The translations under genes were made by a program, and so were the position numbers. DNA of 20,319 nt from a virus (Duplodnaviria; Heunggongvirae; Uroviricota; Caudoviricetes), in the IMG/VR virus record IMGVR_UViG_2651869781_000004; one strand, 5' to 3'. The stretch's first letter is position 1, and each line of letters begins with the position of its first letter. Under the pieces are notes generated by a model that had not been told where the DNA came from, searched no databases, and saw nothing but the letters and a program-made list of their open reading frames with translations. Shown here one piece after another: positions 1,897-11,201 of this stretch.

Positions 1897-2667
1897 ATGG
1901 AAACCGTATCTGACGCACTGAAAGCACTGAAAAAAGCCTCTTCACATGTGGTGGCAGCTCGCCTTGGAATCAGTCGTGAAGAGGCTGTCAACGAGCTGTG
2001 GGAACTCAAAAGAAATGGCGTCGTTGATAAAACTGGTCACACCTGGTTTCTGGCTGGCGAAGGTGAATCCCGGGTAACCGAAGAGCGGCCAGTAAAATCT
2101 GAAGCACAGGATATGCTGACCGGGGAGGTCGAACAAAAAGTTACCGCAGACATGATGATTGAGTTTATCGGTCAGGATGGGGCTAAAACGTGTGAGGAAC
2201 TGGCGGGTAAGTTCGGTGTCAGTACTCGCAAGGTTGCTTCCACGCTGGCGGTGGTAACCGCAACGGGGCGGCTGGCACGCGTTAATCAGAACGGTAAATT
2301 TCGTTACTGCATGCCGGGCGATAATTTACCAGCAGAGCCGAAAGCCGCGCTGGTAACGGAAAGTGATGGTAAGGCCTTTCCTCAGCCAGCAGGTGCTGCG
2401 TTACCAGGCCGGGAAGCCGCAACACAGGAAGAAATTAAAACAGAAACTGTGGCGGACATTGTGCAGTCGTTGCCATCGTTTACCGAAACGCAAGCAGATG
2501 AGCTGATTTTTCCGTCCCTGCGCAGGGCAAACCTGGCGCTGCGCAGGGTGAAAAGTGATGTTCAGAAGTGGGAGCGAGTCTGCGCCGCGCTGCGGGAGCT
2601 GAACAAGCACCGGGATATTGTTCGACAGATTACTGATTCTTCCCGCCGTGTTGTATCGGAAAAGTGA
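1897..2667 (+). CDS. Hypothetical protein with two winged-helix-like repeats
   Basis: 256-aa ORF with GGAGG about 10 nt upstream of the ATG. Two internally similar HTH-like segments (LGISREEAVNELWELKRNGVV and AGKFGVSTRKVASTLAVVTATGRL). No confident family assignment. Confidence 0.55.
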   Translation: METVSDALKALKKASSHVVAARLGISREEAVNELWELKRNGVVDKTGHTWFLAGEGESRVTEERPVKSEAQDMLTGEVEQKVTADMMIEFIGQDGAKTCEELAGKFGVSTRKVASTLAVVTATGRLARVNQNGKFRYCMPGDNLPAEPKAALVTESDGKAFPQPAGAALPGREAATQEEIKTETVADIVQSLPSFTETQADELIFPSLRRANLALRRVKSDVQKWERVCAALRELNKHRDIVRQITDSSRRVVSEK

Positions 2668-2682
2668 TTGCCGGAGGCGCTT

Positions 2683-3105
2683 ATGGCAAAAGTATTTACA
2701 CAAGAAGAGCGGGAAAAAATTAAAGGGCAGGTTGTTGAGCTAGTACGCCGGAGTGGGCGCGAGACGTTACGGCAACTGGAAGCCAAGACAGGTGCGACAA
2801 GATATCTGATGAGTGTTCTCGCCAGAGAGCTGGTTGCCAGTGGCGATGTATACAACTCTGGTTACGGGTTATTCCCGTCTGAACAGGCGCGTAAGGACTG
2901 GCAAAACGCCCGCAAAAAACTCTCAAGGGCAAATCTGAAGAAACCATCTGTGGTTGATCCTGACCTTATCTGGCCATTACCAGACGGAGAAATACGCCGC
3001 TACGACAGGCGTCAAAACATAATCTGTAGCGAGTGCCGGAAGAGCGAAGCTATGCAGCGTGTACTGGCTTTCTATCAGGGTAATTTTCAGAAGGTGCTGT
3101 TGTGA
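2683..3105 (+). CDS. Hypothetical protein
   Basis: ORF-track frame 2668..3105; ATG at 2683 preceded by GGAGG (6-nt spacing). 140 aa, basic, with CxxC near the C-terminus (CSECRK). Confidence 0.5.
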   Translation: MAKVFTQEEREKIKGQVVELVRRSGRETLRQLEAKTGATRYLMSVLARELVASGDVYNSGYGLFPSEQARKDWQNARKKLSRANLKKPSVVDPDLIWPLPDGEIRRYDRRQNIICSECRKSEAMQRVLAFYQGNFQKVLL

Positions 3106-3144
3106 GCCAAATTAACAATCGGAACTTCGTGAAGAGAAAGCATA

Positions 3145-3202
3145 ATCCAAATCTGAATAATTAAGTTCAGCACTGTAAATAAAATTTAATCCTTAACTGG
3201 AG
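3145..3202. repeat. About 58-bp gene-junction element, copy 1 (aatccaaatctgaataattaagttcagcactgtaaataaaatttaatccttaactggagg)
   Basis: About 85% identical to a second copy at 4411-4468. Both end in GGAGG; copy 2 begins in the last codons and stop of the upstream gene. Confidence 0.6.
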
Positions 3203-3210
3203 GTATATCT

Positions 3211-3423
3211 ATGTCAAATACACAGAAAATTATTAACACTGAAAAATATAACGAGTGGGTGAAAAAATTCTCTGAGCAGATTTTTAAAATTACTGGCGAC
3301 GAGAATGTGGCAAAAAATGAATTGGAACCGTGGACACCTGAAGGAAACGCACCAAATTATTGCTGGTGGGAGGTTGATCCGGTTGATGCTGCAAATGAAG
3401 CCATGAGTTACCACAACGATTAA
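3211..3423 (+). CDS. Hypothetical small protein (70 aa)
   Basis: ORF with the GGAGG of the junction repeat 8 nt upstream. AT-rich codon usage, moron-like. No family recognised. Confidence 0.45.
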   Translation: MSNTQKIINTEKYNEWVKKFSEQIFKITGDENVAKNELEPWTPEGNAPNYCWWEVDPVDAANEAMSYHND

Positions 3424-3428
3424 TGTCG

Positions 3429-3451
3429 GGAGGCCGCCCGAAAGGGCGGTA
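3429..3451 (+). promoter_or_regulatory. SD-embedded GAAA-tetraloop hairpin (ggaggccgcccgaaagggcggta), copy 1
   Basis: Stem GCCGCCC / GGGCGGT closing a GAAA loop. The GGAGG overlaps the 5' base of the stem and the next ATG (3456) lies 5 nt after the stem. Identical 23-mer at 4493-4515. Confidence 0.5.
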
Positions 3452-3455
3452 AGAA

Positions 3456-3674
3456 ATGACTACATTATTCAGAAAAGAATATCCGCAAAAAAGTAGGGCG
3501 ACAGAATTTTTGTTTCTCATTCTGTTTATCGTATTGATGATACCGATATCCCCTCTAATTTTTGTCTGGGCAATCGGGAAAATAATTGAGCCAGTTACTG
3601 AATTGTATAACGACGTGGTATGGGCGTCATTCAACACACTGCACAATAAAATTAATCCGTATAAGGAAAACTGA
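3456..3674 (+). CDS. Small hydrophobic (membrane) protein, 72 aa
   Basis: ORF immediately after the hairpin. Central hydrophobic stretch FLFLILFIVLMIPISPLIFVWAIG consistent with one or two transmembrane helices. Confidence 0.4.
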   Translation: MTTLFRKEYPQKSRATEFLFLILFIVLMIPISPLIFVWAIGKIIEPVTELYNDVVWASFNTLHNKINPYKEN

Positions 3675-3675
3675 T

Positions 3676-3939
3676 ATGGCAACTTTGACAAAAAAAGAAC
3701 GGGCATGGTTGAACGAATTACAGGAAGTTCTTGATCGCTGTCCATCACCGAAAAAAATTGGCTTTTACACCATTGGCGATAAAAGCATTTACCTGTATGA
3801 CCTACGCCGCATGGATGAAATCATGGAGGCTCTTGATAATCGTTCGTCGATGGATTGGTGTGTTGCTGTTCATGATATGAATGCAGGGTTTGATGAAAAG
3901 ATTTTGTTCCCCTCATCAGTTGAAAGCACTGCGGGTTAA
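3676..3939 (+). CDS. Hypothetical protein (87 aa)
   Basis: In frame with ORF-track 3586..3939. ATG at 3676 is preceded by AAGGA and sits 1 nt after the stop of the previous gene, consistent with translational coupling. Confidence 0.45.
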   Translation: MATLTKKERAWLNELQEVLDRCPSPKKIGFYTIGDKSIYLYDLRRMDEIMEALDNRSSMDWCVAVHDMNAGFDEKILFPSSVESTAG

Positions 3940-3949
3940 GGAGTAACAC

Positions 3950-4093
3950 ATGACCACTATTACCAAAGAACGTATTGAATTGTTCATTAAATTTTCAGGA
4001 GGCGGTACTGTGAGTGAAATTAGCTATCAGGCTTCAATTACCGCTGGCATTCGCATCAAAGGAGAGGAGCATGGAAATAAAACCAGAGGATGA
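3950..4093 (+). CDS. Possible small ORF (47 aa)
   Basis: ATG at 3950 with AAGGAG 6 nt upstream; ends TGA 4091-4093, overlapping the next gene's start. Below the ORF-track size cut-off; read by eye. Confidence 0.25.
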   Translation: MTTITKERIELFIKFSGGGTVSEISYQASITAGIRIKGEEHGNKTRG

Positions 4094-4427
4094 GTTAAGC
4101 AATATCGTTTTATTTCCGGTAAAAGAGGATGACCCTCGTAATCAGGTTAATTTTCTTTATGAGCCATCGGAAAGACCATATTGTCATCACGCCTCTGTCC
4201 GGGTTGACGAAAAAGAGCGTCAGGTCCGCTGTAAAATCTGCGGTGCAGTTGTGGAACCATTTGACTGGATGCTCTCTGTGGCGAAAAGAGAAACCAGACT
4301 GGCAGATGATGTAAGGCTCTTGCGTCAGGAGGAGCGGGAAAGGCGAAAAAATATAGAAAAGCTAATTCAGATTGAGCGTAACGCGAAAGCGCGGATACGC
4401 AGGGCGACAAAATCCAGAACTGAATAA
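4071..4427 (+). CDS. Hypothetical protein with a possible zinc-ribbon (CHH...CKIC) and basic coiled C-terminus
   Basis: ORF-track frame 4014..4427; ATG at 4071 preceded by AGGAGAGGAG. Cys/His cluster YCHHASVRVDEKERQVRCKICG; C-terminal RQEERERRKNIEKLIQIERNAKARIRR. Confidence 0.5.
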   Translation: MEIKPEDELSNIVLFPVKEDDPRNQVNFLYEPSERPYCHHASVRVDEKERQVRCKICGAVVEPFDWMLSVAKRETRLADDVRLLRQEERERRKNIEKLIQIERNAKARIRRATKSRTE

Positions 4428-4468
4428 TTAAATTTAGCTCTGTTAAAAATTTAATCCTTAACCGGAGG
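4411..4468. repeat. About 58-bp gene-junction element, copy 2
   Basis: aatccagaactgaataattaaatttagctctgttaaaaatttaatccttaaccggagg; aligns with 3145-3202. Confidence 0.6.
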
Positions 4469-4492
4469 GATTTCTGCACCCTCAGAACATCA

Positions 4493-4515
4493 GGAGGCCG
4501 CCCGAAAGGGCGGTA
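4493..4515 (+). promoter_or_regulatory. SD-embedded GAAA-tetraloop hairpin, copy 2 (identical 23-mer)
   Basis: ggaggccgcccgaaagggcggta is identical to 3429-3451. The next ATG (4521) is 6 nt after the stem. Confidence 0.5.
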
Positions 4516-4520
4516 GTTAA

Positions 4521-4703
4521 ATGCGAAAGTTTAAAATAATTATTGAAACGGGAATAGCCGGTGGAGATTTCGAGGATGAATTCGAAGTGGATGATGATGC
4601 GACGCCTGATGAAATACATGACGAAGCAAAAGATATTTTCTTTAACTACTGCAATTACTCATATCACGAAATAAAAGACGAAGAGGAAGAACAAAATGGC
4701 TGA
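4521..4703 (+). CDS. Highly acidic small protein (60 aa)
   Basis: ORF after hairpin copy 2. Very D/E-rich (GDFEDEFEVDDDATPDEIHDE...KDEEEEQNG). Confidence 0.4.
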   Translation: MRKFKIIIETGIAGGDFEDEFEVDDDATPDEIHDEAKDIFFNYCNYSYHEIKDEEEEQNG

Positions 4704-4872
4704 TTTTGGTTCAACTAAATACAACGTCGGTTTTGAAGAATGGCATGAACTGTTAATGGACTATGCAGAGTTATGTGGTGGCAGTGCTGCTGATGCTGAA
4801 GCATGGCGTGATGATTATGAAGCAGGAAAAACTCCGGTCGAAGCATATTGTGATGAGTGGGGCGATGAATGA
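4696..4872 (+). CDS. Acidic small protein (58 aa)
   Basis: ATG at 4696 overlaps the end of the previous ORF by 8 nt. MADFGSTKYNVGFEEWHELLMDYAELCGGSAADAEAWRDDYEAGKTPVEAYCDEWGDE; read by eye, below the track cut-off. Confidence 0.4.
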   Translation: MADFGSTKYNVGFEEWHELLMDYAELCGGSAADAEAWRDDYEAGKTPVEAYCDEWGDE

Positions 4873-5184
4873 GCGAGGTTAATTATCAGGAAGGGCATGA
4901 AACGGCGGGGCAAGCAAAAACAGTGGCATGGCGATATCGCTACGTGAAAAAAAGGCGTTACGGACTTTCAGGGGAAGTAGTGGTCTGGTGACTGGAAATA
5001 TGTACCGAAAAAAGAGGATTGTAACGACAGGCCGAACTATGAAATTCAGGCCTTATTCACTGCCCCGCCAGTCCCGGTTACATCAGAAGAACTGGTTAAA
5101 GCTGTGCACTTTTATGAACAACTAAAATGCGAAAATCCACCAGCATCCGGAAACCTGATTACAGATTCCCAGATAAGGCAATGA
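4869..5184 (+). pseudogene. Possible frameshifted gene: a 40-codon ORF (4869-4991) continuing in the +1 frame to 5184
   Basis: ATG 4869 overlaps the previous stop (ATGA). The frame stops at TGA 4989-4991, but the +1 frame stays open from 4981 to TGA 5182-5184 with protein-like sequence (DWKYVPKKEDCNDRPNYEIQALFTAPPVPVTSEELVKAVHFYEQLKCENPP...) and no start codon of its own. Confidence 0.25.
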
Positions 5185-5354
5185 GCTACCTGGCGCAGAA
5201 CGGGCTGATAAGTATGGGGAATGTTTTACGATGAATATTTAGACTAAAGAGTTTGTAACGCTATGTAAGTGATTTTTTCTGGTTTAGATATTTATATGTC
5301 CGGCTAAATTGAGGTGTGTTTAAATGTTATTGCACATTGATTGTAGGGGGAATA

Positions 5355-5617: not shown

Positions 5618-5689
5618 GACTGCGGGTGCTTGAGGCTATCTGTCTCAGGCATGAACACCAAAAGGCAGATAGAGAAAAGCCCCAGTTAA

Positions 5690-5780
5690 CATTACGCGTC
5701 CTGCAAGACGCTTAACATTAATCTGAGGCCATATCTATGCGACACATAGAGATTAGCCTCTTACGGACCGAAAGGTCAAG
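5690..5780 (-). ncRNA. Candidate Sok-like antisense RNA region (approximate)
   Basis: Expected by analogy with hok/sok loci. Minus strand has TTGACC (complement of 5774-5779) and a GCGTC-N6-GACGC hairpin at 5696-5711. The -10 is weak and boundaries are not determined. Confidence 0.2.
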
Positions 5781-5796
5781 GAGAAGCAGGCTATGA
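5737..5796 (+). CDS. Short leader ORF (19 codons) ending on the hok start codon; mok-like coupling ORF
   Basis: ATG 5737 with TGAGG 9 nt upstream; its TGA stop (5794-5796) overlaps the hok ATG (5793-5795). Shorter than a typical mok. Confidence 0.3.
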   Translation: MRHIEISLLRTERSRRSRL

Positions 5797-5948
5797 AGCA
5801 GCAAAAGGCGATGTTAATCGCCCTGATCGTCATCTGTTTAACCGTCATAGTGACGGCACTGGTAACGAGGAAAGACCTCTGCGAGGTACGAATCCGAACC
5901 GGCCAGACGGAGGTCGCTGTCTTCACAGCTTACGAACCTGAGGAGTAA
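5793..5948 (+). CDS. hok: Hok/Gef-family type I toxin (51 aa membrane peptide)
   Basis: MKQQKAMLIALIVICLTVIVTALVTRKDLCEVRIRTGQTEVAVFTAYEPEE is the Hok/Gef family signature and is nearly identical to HokD/RelF as recalled. Good SD (AAGGAGAAG) upstream. Confidence 0.9.
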   Translation: MKQQKAMLIALIVICLTVIVTALVTRKDLCEVRIRTGQTEVAVFTAYEPEE

Positions 5949-10040: not shown

Positions 10041-10116
10041 GGCCCTTTAGCTCAGTGGTGAGAGCGAGCGACTCATAATCGCCAGGTCGCTGGTTCAAAT
10101 CCAGCAAGGGCCACCA
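10041..10116 (+). tRNA. ileZ: tRNA-Ile2 (anticodon CAU, lysidine type), ileZ-like
   Basis: 76 nt with CCA end. 7-bp acceptor stem GGCCCTT/AAGGGCC, D-arm GCTC...GAGC, anticodon loop CTCATAA, T-loop GGTTCAAATCC. Closely resembles E. coli ileX. Confidence 0.85.
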
Positions 10117-10213: not shown

Positions 10214-10290
10214 GCGTTGTTAGCTCAGCCGGACAGAGCAATTGCCTTCTAAGCAATCGGTCACTGGTTCGAATCCAGTACAACGCGCCA
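10214..10290 (+). tRNA. argO: tRNA-Arg (anticodon UCU), argO-like
   Basis: 77 nt with CCA. Acceptor GCGTTGT/ACAACGC, anticodon loop CTTCTAA (UCU), T-loop GGTTCGAATCC. Confidence 0.85.
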
Positions 10291-10754: not shown

Positions 10755-11146
10755 ATACATATCTGGATTATCACCTGTTACGGTAAAAAGTGATTGCTTA
10801 CTGTTTTTGTGAATGGCATTGCAGCAGCCGGATAATGTCAGTGCTGGCTGACGGTGTGCTGGTGGCGGGTGTGGTGGTTGTTGCTTTCCCGTTGCTGAAA
10901 AAGAAAACGCCAGACTGTTAGCCGGGTATCAGTTAGCGGGAGAAATTTTTAAATACTTCACAATTCAGGCGGTTGACTGTTGTCTGGTTTGCGGGGAGTT
11001 TGTTAAAAGAAACTGGCATGGTGAATCCCCCTGTGCGGAGGGGCAATCAGCGAGTAGGTATATGGGATAATCGCGGATTCAGGTGCTGGTACTGAATTCA
11101 CCGGGAGGCACCCGGCACCATGCAATGGCACATAGCGCCACTCTCC

Positions 11147-11172
11147 AGCCCCTCTCCGGAGGGGCTGTTTAT
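11147..11172 (+). terminator. Putative intrinsic terminator (agcccctc-tccg-gaggggct followed by a T-rich tract)
   Basis: 8-bp GC-rich stem with tetraloop followed by GTTTAT. Lies between the two convergent cargo ORFs. Confidence 0.4.
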
Positions 11173-11201
11173 ATTGATTTTGTCAGATGTGAGTAAACTC
11201 C

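What the first reader, a model, noticed from the sequence alone, without database searches (positions are those of the whole stretch)
3145..4468. Duplicated gene-junction element framing a moron cassette in the nin-like region
Two copies of an about 58-bp element (3145-3202 and 4411-4468, about 85% identical) each run from the last codons and stop of one gene to a GGAGG that serves the next gene. Between them lie five small AT-rich ORFs. Such short conserved boundary sequences are the proposed recombination joints that shuffle modules among lambdoid phages, so this looks like a cassette captured by junction-mediated exchange, caught with both joints still intact.
Basis: partly seen in the sequence, partly recalled or inferred. 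Interest (0 to 1): 0.55.

Follow-up and report, generated by a model that had tools for sequence, protein, structure and literature searches.

The report
Recurrent gene-junction element, duplicated by illegitimate join
The repeat is real: it is two alleles of a roughly 100-base junction sequence that sits between many different small genes in E. coli prophages and behaves as a recombination patch, but here it occurs twice because of one illegitimate join inside coding sequence, not because a cassette was captured at the repeats.

Summary
The two copies exist (3141-3210 and 4408-4475, 58/70 identical with a 2-nt indel; chance expectation 0).

They are the left part (A) of a roughly 100-nt element. 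It comprises the last Glu codon and stop of an upstream gene, an AT-rich spacer, GGAGG, a 24-nt linker, a second SD, a 7-bp GAAA hairpin (B) and the ATG.

The element occurs in 2394 of 5426 complete E. coli genomes, between at least 4 unrelated upstream and about 10 downstream gene families. Homology breakpoints fall at its two edges. So the "boundary sequence" idea holds for the population.

The window's duplication has a different origin. The repeated unit is larger: 3082-3210 matches 3990-4475, with the 118-aa gene deleted from the first copy. Its right-hand joint lies in the AA at 3990-3991, where codon 14 of a DUF550 gene is fused to the last 24 nt of a DUF977 gene. Each half is common; the fusion is in only 73 genomes.

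Two prophage lineages (98.6% and 98.5% identical to the respective sides) were joined illegitimately.

No promoter or terminator was found, so this is not a moron. It is a new member of a known kind, of modest interest.

The parts
2683..3105 (+). DUF977 gene (LygF; PHROG 'Ren-like exclusion protein'). Its last 24 nt (3082-3105) are the first copy of the DUF977 3' end.
   Evidence: Pfam PF06163 E=5e-31; phrog_142; RefSeq annotation.
3106..3160 (+). Relic of a deleted 118-aa gene. The first roughly 15 nt of its leader (3106-3120) and its last 6 codons plus stop (3141-3160) remain. About 379 nt are replaced by 20 nt (3121-3140).
   Evidence: Repeat families D2 and D1. L009, L021 and L055 carry the full gene at this position.
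3153..3203 (+). Junction element, module A, copy 1: CTGAATAATTAA ... AAATTTAATCCTTAACTGGAGG. Its GGAGG serves the ATG at 3211.
3211..3423 (+). 70-aa gene (phrog_4659). It is an optional insert lying between module A and module B.
3428..3455 (+). Module B, copy 1: SD 3428-3432, 7-bp stem 3433-3439/3444-3450 with GAAA loop, 5-nt tail, then the ATG of DUF4014 at 3456.
   Evidence: -18.8 kcal/mol, z=-3.6.
3456..3674 (+). DUF4014 gene.
   Evidence: Pfam PF13198 E=5e-26.
3676..3939 (+). 87-aa gene (phrog_1714).
3950..4093 (+). 47-aa chimeric ORF: 14 codons of a DUF550 gene (3950-3991), then an out-of-frame DUF977 tail and the leader of the 118-aa gene. Probably a by-product of the fusion.
   Evidence: (H65).
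3990..3991 (.). Illegitimate recombination joint (dinucleotide AA shared by both parents).
   Evidence: Three-way alignment. Half-matches end at 3991 or begin at 3990 in about 1850 genomes; the intact joint is in 73.
3990..4013 (+). Second, non-functional copy of a DUF977 3' end (AAT TTT CAG GAG GCG GTA CTG TGA).
   Evidence: Matches the end of DUF977 in JJ1886 within a 543/551 alignment.
4071..4427 (+). 118-aa gene (phrog_1621; weak zinc-ribbon match below the Pfam cut-off).
4420..4468 (+). Junction element, module A, copy 2. It begins with the last Glu codon and TAA of the 118-aa gene.
4469..4491 (+). Linker of the long form of the element (GATTTCTGCACCCTCAGAACATC).
4492..4520 (+). Module B, copy 2: SD AGGAG 4492-4496, stem 4497-4503/4508-4514 with GAAA loop, 6-nt tail, then the ATG of DUF7167 at 4521.
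   Evidence: -15.9 kcal/mol, z=-2.75.
4521..4703 (+). DUF7167 gene, the commonest downstream partner of the element.
   Evidence: Pfam PF23768 E=8e-15.

Best explanation
The two copies are different alleles of module A of a roughly 100-nt gene-junction element of Escherichia/Shigella lambdoid prophages.

The element starts with the last Glu codon and TAA of whatever gene lies upstream. It continues through an AT-rich spacer to a GGAGG, then a 24-nt linker. It ends with module B: a second SD, a stable 7-bp hairpin with a GAAA loop, 3-8 nt, and the start codon of whatever gene lies downstream.

The same element sits between many unrelated gene pairs. It therefore acts as a patch of homology at which homologous recombination (phage Red/RecT-type or RecA) re-assorts the neighbouring small genes. 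This step is inferred from population patterns. Module B probably works as a 'split' ribosome-binding site, in which the hairpin shortens a 23-nt SD-AUG distance to about 6 nt. This step is inferred from the anatomy.

In this window the element occurs twice because of one illegitimate join, at the AA of 3990-3991.
- The left part came from one lineage: DUF977, relic of the 118-aa gene, A, 70 aa, B, DUF4014, 87 aa, start of DUF550. It resembles strain D1.
- The right part came from another lineage: last 24 nt of DUF977, 118-aa gene, A, linker, B, DUF7167. It resembles JJ1886.

The join produced a partial tandem duplication (3082-3210 and 3990-4475) and a chimeric 47-aa ORF. Earlier, the first copy had lost the body of its 118-aa gene by deletion.
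For: Structure of the duplication:
- Extra repeats 3082-3120/3990-4028 and 3141-3210/4408-4475.
- JJ1886 aligns to window 3990-4540 at 543/551, starting inside its DUF977 gene.
- Strain D1 matches window 2673-3991 at 98.6% and then diverges into DUF550.
- The three-way alignment shows only a 2-nt overlap.
- The intact joint is in 73 of 5426 genomes. The other genomes that match (about 1850) carry only one half, and the rows listed end at 3991 or start at 3990.
- Every two-copy IMG/VR locus carries the same joint.

The element as a recurrent junction:
- 2394 of 5426 genomes, 3397 places, up to 7 per genome.
- Upstream partners: the 118-aa gene, its relic, two diverged Ead/Ea22 genes and a 103-aa O157 gene.
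- Downstream partners: DUF7167, the 70-aa gene, DUF551, DUF4014, a Q-like antiterminator, QueH and others.
- All four combinations of the major partners exist.
- All four combinations of {relic or full 118-aa gene} with {70-aa gene or B-DUF7167} exist.
- Variable positions in the left part of A follow the upstream gene, and the tail after the hairpin follows the downstream gene.
- Pairwise homology begins at -29/-27 or ends at +66 to +78 relative to the core.
- The conservation plateau ends sharply at +69.

Hairpin:
- -15.9 and -18.8 kcal/mol, z = -2.75 and -3.6.
- 19 one-sided C-to-U changes keep U.G pairs on the + strand only.
- Precedent for a split RBS: T4 genes 38 and 25 (PMC3014915).
Against: - No experiment shows that crossovers occur in the element. 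Repeated illegitimate events followed by selection could in principle give similar edges.
- The IMG/VR set was collected with the 22-nt core as an exact pattern, so the invariance of that core is by construction. The megablast searches need a 28-nt exact word.
- Covariation in the hairpin is not significant (132-202 of 500 shuffles reach the observed values; one compensatory change).
- The element is confined to Escherichia/Shigella, so its conservation may reflect recent spread rather than function.
- The parents are inferred from extant relatives, not observed.
- No genome holds a near-identical A1 x A2 deletion derivative of this arrangement. The best match to the synthetic junction is 88-92% identical.
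Confidence: 0.7

Rival explanations
1. A five-gene cassette was captured by homologous exchange at the two 58-mers, which are the intact left and right joints of that event.
For: The element does behave as a boundary sequence in the population. L019-type relatives lack 3211-4475 as a unit, with a single hybrid A element in its place. 153 genomes have relic-A-linker-B.
Against: The duplicated unit extends beyond the 58-mers to a DUF977 3' end and a gene relic. The lineage switch lies at 3990-3991 inside coding sequence, with 2-nt microhomology. The 118-aa gene to the left of copy 2 belongs with copy 2's lineage, not with the 'cassette'. The cassette-less relatives are only about 88-94% identical, whereas the two parental types are 98.5-98.6% identical.
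Confidence: 0.1
2. A simple local tandem duplication within one genome, followed by divergence of the copies and internal deletion.
For: Direct repeats in tandem orientation. Copy 1 carries a deletion.
Against: The copies differ by 17-23% while their flanks are 98.5-98.6% identical to two separate extant lineages. Each A allele is the one typical of its own neighbours elsewhere: the TAAAT/CTGGAGGT form with the relic and the 70-aa gene, and the TTA--/CCGGAGGG form with the 118-aa gene and DUF7167. The 87-aa/DUF550 side of the joint is unrelated to DUF977.
Confidence: 0.04
3. The element is conserved mainly because it is a functional RNA or regulatory site, for example an N/boxB-like antitermination hairpin, a processing site or an sRNA. 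Its role in recombination would then be incidental.
For: Stable hairpin with a GNRA loop. U.G-preserving substitutions fit only the + strand. The element lies just after the Ren-like DUF977 gene, the place where lambda has its ren-nin boundary (for the Ren-like assignment; the lambda gene order is from general knowledge).
Against: No Rfam family matches, even at E up to 10. No promoter-like or terminator-like site and no U tract. The boxA-like string GCTCTGTTAA is present in only one allele of A and is not conserved. No significant covariation. The exact core is restricted to Escherichia/Shigella.
Confidence: 0.15

Closest known systems
Conserved boundary (linker) sequences of lambdoid phages, proposed as homologous-recombination joints between modules (cited as refs 21-22 in PMC3029335; the debate is summarised in PMC3945230)
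   Same: A short conserved sequence exactly at gene boundaries. It is shared by phages whose neighbouring genes are unrelated, and mosaic breakpoints fall at its edges.
   Different: This element is long (about 100 nt) and composite: stop codon, SD, linker, then SD-hairpin-ATG. It is very abundant (44% of complete E. coli genomes). I found no description of this particular sequence. In the window itself the decisive joint is not at the element.
PeSLs (promoter-early stem-loops) of T4-type phages, regulatory cassettes that mediate modular shuffling (PMC2839356, PMC4122927)
   Same: Repeated intergenic motifs with a stem-loop, lying between small non-essential genes in a hyperplastic region. Recombination between copies inserts, deletes or replaces the genes between them. 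Direct repeats flank a small gene set, as in this window.
   Different: PeSLs combine a strong sigma-70 promoter with a terminator. Here no promoter-like site was found, and the hairpin has no U tract and sits between the SD and the ATG. Mini-circles were not tested.
Split ribosome-binding sites of T4 genes 38 and 25 (PMC3014915)
   Same: The SD and AUG are too far apart (23 nt here; 22 and 27 nt in T4), and a stable hairpin lying entirely between them reduces the distance to about 6 nt (5 and 11 nt in T4).
   Different: Only predicted here. There is no mutational or probing evidence, and covariation is not significant.
Illegitimate-recombination joints of the Hendrix model of phage mosaicism (discussed in PMC3029335 and PMC3945230)
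   Same: The join at 3990-3991 falls inside two unrelated coding sequences with 2-nt microhomology, leaving gene fragments and a chimeric ORF.
   Different: Nothing unusual. It is a clear single-origin example, found in 73 genomes.
Morons (independent transcription units inserted between adjacent phage genes)
   Same: Extra small genes of lower GC are present in some relatives and absent in others. The 70-aa gene is an optional insert between modules A and B.
   Different: No own promoter or terminator was detected. The genes are on the same strand and tightly coupled to their neighbours. The low GC is shared by the whole region to about 5700.

Membership tests
Lambdoid boundary/linker sequence | Short conserved sequence located at a gene or module boundary | tested here: met
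   The element begins with the last codon and stop of the upstream gene and ends 3-8 nt before the downstream ATG.
Lambdoid boundary/linker sequence | The same sequence is flanked by non-homologous genes in different phages | tested here: met
   At least 4 intact upstream families and about 10 downstream families.
Lambdoid boundary/linker sequence | Mosaic breakpoints coincide with it, and combinations are reticulate | tested here: met
   Homology starts at -29/-27 or ends at +66 to +78. All four combinations of the major partners exist.
Lambdoid boundary/linker sequence | Recombination actually occurs there | not testable with these tools
   Needs genetic crosses. Hybrid A alleles such as L019 are only suggestive.
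Moron | Own promoter upstream of the inserted gene(s) | tested here: not met
   No sigma-70-like site in or near either copy. Four sites were found in 2600-5000 against 4.4 expected, none at the element. This is a consensus scan only.
Moron | Own intrinsic terminator downstream | tested here: not met
   No terminator-like site on the + strand. The B hairpin has no U tract.
Moron | Composition distinct from the neighbours | tested here: inconclusive
   GC falls at about 3000, but it stays low to about 5700, well beyond copy 2.
PeSL (T4-type promoter-early stem-loop) | Strong sigma-70 early promoter joined to a terminator stem-loop | tested here: not met
   The resemblance is functional (homology patches between small genes), not a matter of membership.
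Split RBS (T4 gene 38/25 type) | SD-AUG spacing too long for direct function | tested here: met
   The SD ends at 4496 and the ATG is at 4521 (24 nt between). For copy 1 the SD ends at 3432 and the ATG is at 3456.
Split RBS (T4 gene 38/25 type) | A stable hairpin lying wholly between SD and AUG restores a functional distance | tested here: met
   Predicted 7-bp stem with a GAAA loop, leaving 5-6 nt before the AUG; z = -2.75 and -3.6. Conserved in 48 distinct sequences, 95.5% of cells paired.
Split RBS (T4 gene 38/25 type) | Stem mutations lower translation and compensatory changes restore it | not testable with these tools
   Natural covariation is not significant.
Lambda-type nut site (boxA + boxB) | Conserved boxA a few bases upstream of a GNRA-like boxB hairpin | tested here: not met
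   A boxA-like string occurs in one allele of A only, about 60 nt upstream of the hairpin, and it varies among alleles.
Known RNA families (Rfam 15) | Match to a curated covariance model | tested here: not met
   Nothing at the element at the gathering threshold or at E up to 10.

The most novel reading that the evidence does not exclude
The A-linker-B element could be a dedicated cassette-exchange and expression site of E. coli lambdoid prophages, comparable in role to PeSLs or integron attC sites. Its composite structure (shared stop, SD, structured split RBS) would then be selected because it lets any small gene dropped between two copies be translated at once and moved on by phage recombinases. 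On this reading the hairpin might also be a regulatory switch for the variable accessory genes.
Probability: 0.12. Interest if true: 0.65.

Novelty: new member of a known kind. Interest (0 to 1): 0.38.

Why it matters
Whether phage mosaicism arises by homologous exchange at short conserved boundary sequences or by random illegitimate joins followed by selection is a long-standing debate (PMC3029335, PMC3945230). This 1.4-kb stretch shows both processes side by side.

- It holds a boundary element present in 44% of complete E. coli genomes, with clean reticulate partner combinations.
- It also holds, 430 nt upstream of copy 2, a textbook illegitimate join with gene debris.

The element is abundant and sharply bounded, so it would make a convenient natural substrate for measuring boundary-sequence recombination.

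The work also shows that a RefSeq-annotated 47-aa 'protein', which has its own PHROG family, is probably fusion debris.

Tried and rejected
- Rfam at gathering and permissive thresholds: nothing at the element.
- Promoter and terminator scan: nothing at either copy.
- Module A as RNA structure: no stability beyond shuffles (z = -0.06 and -0.73).
- Hairpin covariation: not significant.
- 'Stop codons in all three frames' as the reason for TGAATAATTAA: rejected, because every intact upstream gene uses the same frame (..GAA TAA).
- BoxA/boxB (nut) reading: the boxA-like string is allele-specific.
- Module B as an independent, widespread RBS module: rejected. In the loci examined it is always directly after A or after A plus the 70-aa gene.
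- Recent A1 x A2 deletion derivative of this arrangement: none found. The best match to the synthetic junction is 88-92% identical.
- Full-text search for the core sequence, and for a description of a conserved intergenic element in lambdoid prophages: no papers.
- Range beyond Escherichia/Shigella: only a 3-kb 'Collinsella' MAG scaffold, probably mis-binned.
Full report
**Context**

The window is part of an E. coli lambdoid prophage. Bases 2600-4800 are 100% identical to the chromosome of strain FDAARGOS_1059. RefSeq annotation there gives the following gene order, in window coordinates:
- DUF1627, 1897-2667
- DUF977, 2683-3105
- 70-aa gene, 3211-3423
- DUF4014, 3456-3674
- 87-aa gene, 3676-3939
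- 47-aa ORF, 3950-4093
- 118-aa gene, 4071-4427
- DUF7167, 4521-4703
- 58-aa gene, 4696-4872

Pfam and PHROG scans agree with these assignments and give no known function for any of the small genes. DUF977 falls in a PHROG labelled 'Ren-like exclusion protein'.

**Checking the observation**

The repeat is real. 3141-3210 matches 4408-4475 at 58 of 70 positions with a 2-nt indel. The 22-nt core AAATTTAATCCTTAACYGGAGG occurs exactly twice, against 0 expected in shuffles.

Five ORFs lie between the copies. GC is low there (0.37-0.47), but it stays low to about 5700.

Two details are only half true. Copy 1 does not contain the end of any annotated gene, because DUF977 stops at 3105. The GGAGG of copy 2 lies 52 nt from the next start codon.

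Two further repeats were missed. One is 3082-3120 with 3990-4028 (30/39). The other is 3426-3451 with 4490-4515 (25/26): an SD followed by the hairpin GCCGCCC-GAAA-GGGCGGU just before an ATG.

**What the repeated unit is**

In JJ1886-type relatives the order is DUF977, 118-aa gene, DUF7167. JJ1886 aligns with window 3990-4540 at 543/551, and the alignment begins inside its DUF977 gene.

So window 3990-4013 is a second, functionless copy of the last 8 codons and stop of a DUF977 gene. The unit 3990-4475 therefore consists of a DUF977 end, a leader, the 118-aa gene and the junction. It corresponds to 3082-3210, in which about 379 nt of the 118-aa gene are replaced by 20 nt.

The 12 nt before CTGAATAA in copy 1 (CATAATCCAAAT) resemble the 3' end of the 118-aa gene. 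They do not resemble the ends of the other upstream partners. Loci L009, L021 and L055 carry the full 118-aa gene in front of the 70-aa gene. Deletion is therefore the parsimonious reading of copy 1.

**The joint that created the duplication**

Strain D1 matches window 2673-3991 at 98.6% and then continues into a DUF550-type gene. H65 shows that 3944-3991 is the start of a gene annotated as DUF550.

A three-way alignment gives the following:
- window: ..GTTCATTAAATTTTCAGGAGG..
- D1: ..GTTCATTAAAAATCCGC..
- JJ1886: ..CAGGGTAATTTTCAGGAGG..

The parents overlap only in the AA at 3990-3991.

A 121-nt probe across the joint matches in full in 73 of 5426 genomes. The other genomes that match (about 1850) carry only one half. 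In the rows listed, that half either ends at 3991, under two hypothetical genes, or starts at 3990, under DUF977.

All IMG/VR contigs with two copies of the core carry this same joint.

The join is therefore a single illegitimate event. It fused codon 14 of DUF550, out of frame, to the tail of DUF977. The result is the 47-aa ORF 3950-4093, which is probably debris even though it is annotated and has its own PHROG family.

**The element in the population**

The exact core is found in more than 120 IMG/VR contigs. The long form (4420-4520) is found in 2394 of 5426 complete E. coli genomes, at 3397 places and up to 7 per genome. Copy 1 (3141-3210) matches only 18 of 50,697 phage records. Among species representatives, the core occurs only in Escherichia and Shigella, plus one 3-kb 'Collinsella' MAG scaffold.

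Alignment of 48 distinct instances shows one conserved block. It runs from C[T/A]GAATAATTAA to the 3' end of the hairpin. The usual form is A, then GATTTCTGCACCCTCAGAACATC, then B, then 3-8 nt, then ATG. Conservation drops to background at +69 relative to the core.

Upstream partners:
- the 118-aa gene
- its relic
- two diverged Ead/Ea22 genes
- a 103-aa O157 gene

Downstream partners:
- DUF7167
- the 70-aa gene
- a DUF551 protein
- DUF4014
- a Q-like antiterminator
- QueH
- others

All intact upstream genes end in the same frame with ..GAA TAA.

The combinations are reticulate: each major upstream class occurs with DUF7167 and with DUF551, and two of them also occur with DUF4014. Variable positions in the left part of A follow the upstream gene, and the tail after the hairpin follows the downstream gene.

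Pairwise comparisons show that homology starts at -29/-27 when the upstream genes differ. It ends at +66 to +78 when the downstream genes differ.

All four arrangements of {relic or full 118-aa gene} with {70-aa gene or B-DUF7167} exist. L019 equals the window minus 3211-4475, at about 93.6% identity, with a hybrid A allele. 153 genomes have relic-A-linker-B.

One caveat applies. The 22-nt core was the retrieval pattern, so its invariance is by construction. The conservation of the linker and of B is not.

**How it most likely works**

The population patterns fit homologous recombination in the near-invariant middle of the element, about 55 nt long. By general knowledge this length is enough for RecA- and Red/RecT-type exchange. 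Rad52-like phage recombinases are known to recombine short, diverged homologies between lambdoid phages and prophages (PMC3945230). This step is inferred, not shown.

Module B is predicted to fold stably: -15.9 and -18.8 kcal/mol, z = -2.75 and -3.6. The hairpin lies exactly between an SD and an AUG that are 23-24 nt apart, and leaves 5-6 nt after the stem. This mirrors the split ribosome-binding sites of T4 genes 38 and 25 (PMC3014915).

Substitutions in the stem are mostly C-to-U changes that keep U.G pairs on the + strand. Covariation is not significant, however.

Module A shows no structure beyond chance. No Rfam family matches, and no promoter-like or terminator-like site is present.

The 70-aa gene is an optional insert between A and B. 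It uses the GGAGG of A, which is otherwise unused in the long form.

**Comparison with what is known**

The element meets the testable criteria of a lambdoid boundary (linker) sequence (PMC3029335). It works like the PeSLs of T4-type phages (PMC2839356, PMC4122927), but it lacks their promoter and terminator.

It is not a moron. The duplication in the window is an ordinary illegitimate-recombination product. I found no published description of this specific sequence.

**Verdict**

The specific story, a cassette captured at two intact joints, is wrong for this window.

It is a new member of a known kind, of modest interest. Its main value is as a clean, abundant example that shows both proposed routes to phage mosaicism within 1.4 kb.

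Noticed in passing
window 3428-3455 and 4492-4520: An SD, a 7-bp GC-rich hairpin with a GAAA loop and the ATG: a predicted split ribosome-binding site in front of DUF4014 and DUF7167. In the loci examined it is always found after module A, or after module A plus the 70-aa gene.
   Followed up: yes
window 3950-4093: The 47-aa ORF is annotated in RefSeq (WP_000207966.1) and has its own PHROG family (phrog_19884). It is nevertheless a fusion of 14 DUF550 codons to an out-of-frame DUF977 tail, so it is probably not a real gene.
   Followed up: partly
window 3102-3164: A 20-codon GTG-started mini-ORF (VSQINNRNFVKRKHNPNLNN) overlaps the DUF977 stop and runs through the relic of the 118-aa gene. It recurs in 23 or more IMG/VR instances, and in some loci longer ORFs read into it (L019, L111).
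   Followed up: no
L065, L072, L088 (linker of the element): In some alleles the linker begins with a run of 7-9 G (GGAGGGGGGGGCTGCACC) in place of GGAGGGATTTCTGCACC. This is a homopolymer tract of variable length right after the first SD.
   Followed up: no
window 5624-5795 and 5793-5948: A sok antitoxin RNA (Rfam RF01794, 106.7 bits) with a hok-type toxin ORF. This is the conserved landmark that follows the variable small-gene region in most relatives.
   Followed up: no
window 10041-10116, 10214-10290, 10987-11176: tRNA-Met (CAT), tRNA-Arg (TCT) and the sRNA STnc100 (RF02076, 132 bits), all downstream of the Q antiterminator region.
   Followed up: no
window 4869-5234: In FDAARGOS_1059, which is identical to the window over 2600-4800 only, RefSeq marks the gene at the corresponding position as a pseudogene (frameshifted, internal stop). 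JE86-ST02 has an intact 119-aa gene in the corresponding position.
   Followed up: no
L133 (JAIHTM010000290.1) and H82 (PP818812.1): The E. coli-type junction element appears on a 3-kb scaffold binned as Collinsella sp. and in a record named Actinobacillus phage vB_Apl-pPE4. Possible mis-binning, contamination or an unexpected host label.
   Followed up: no
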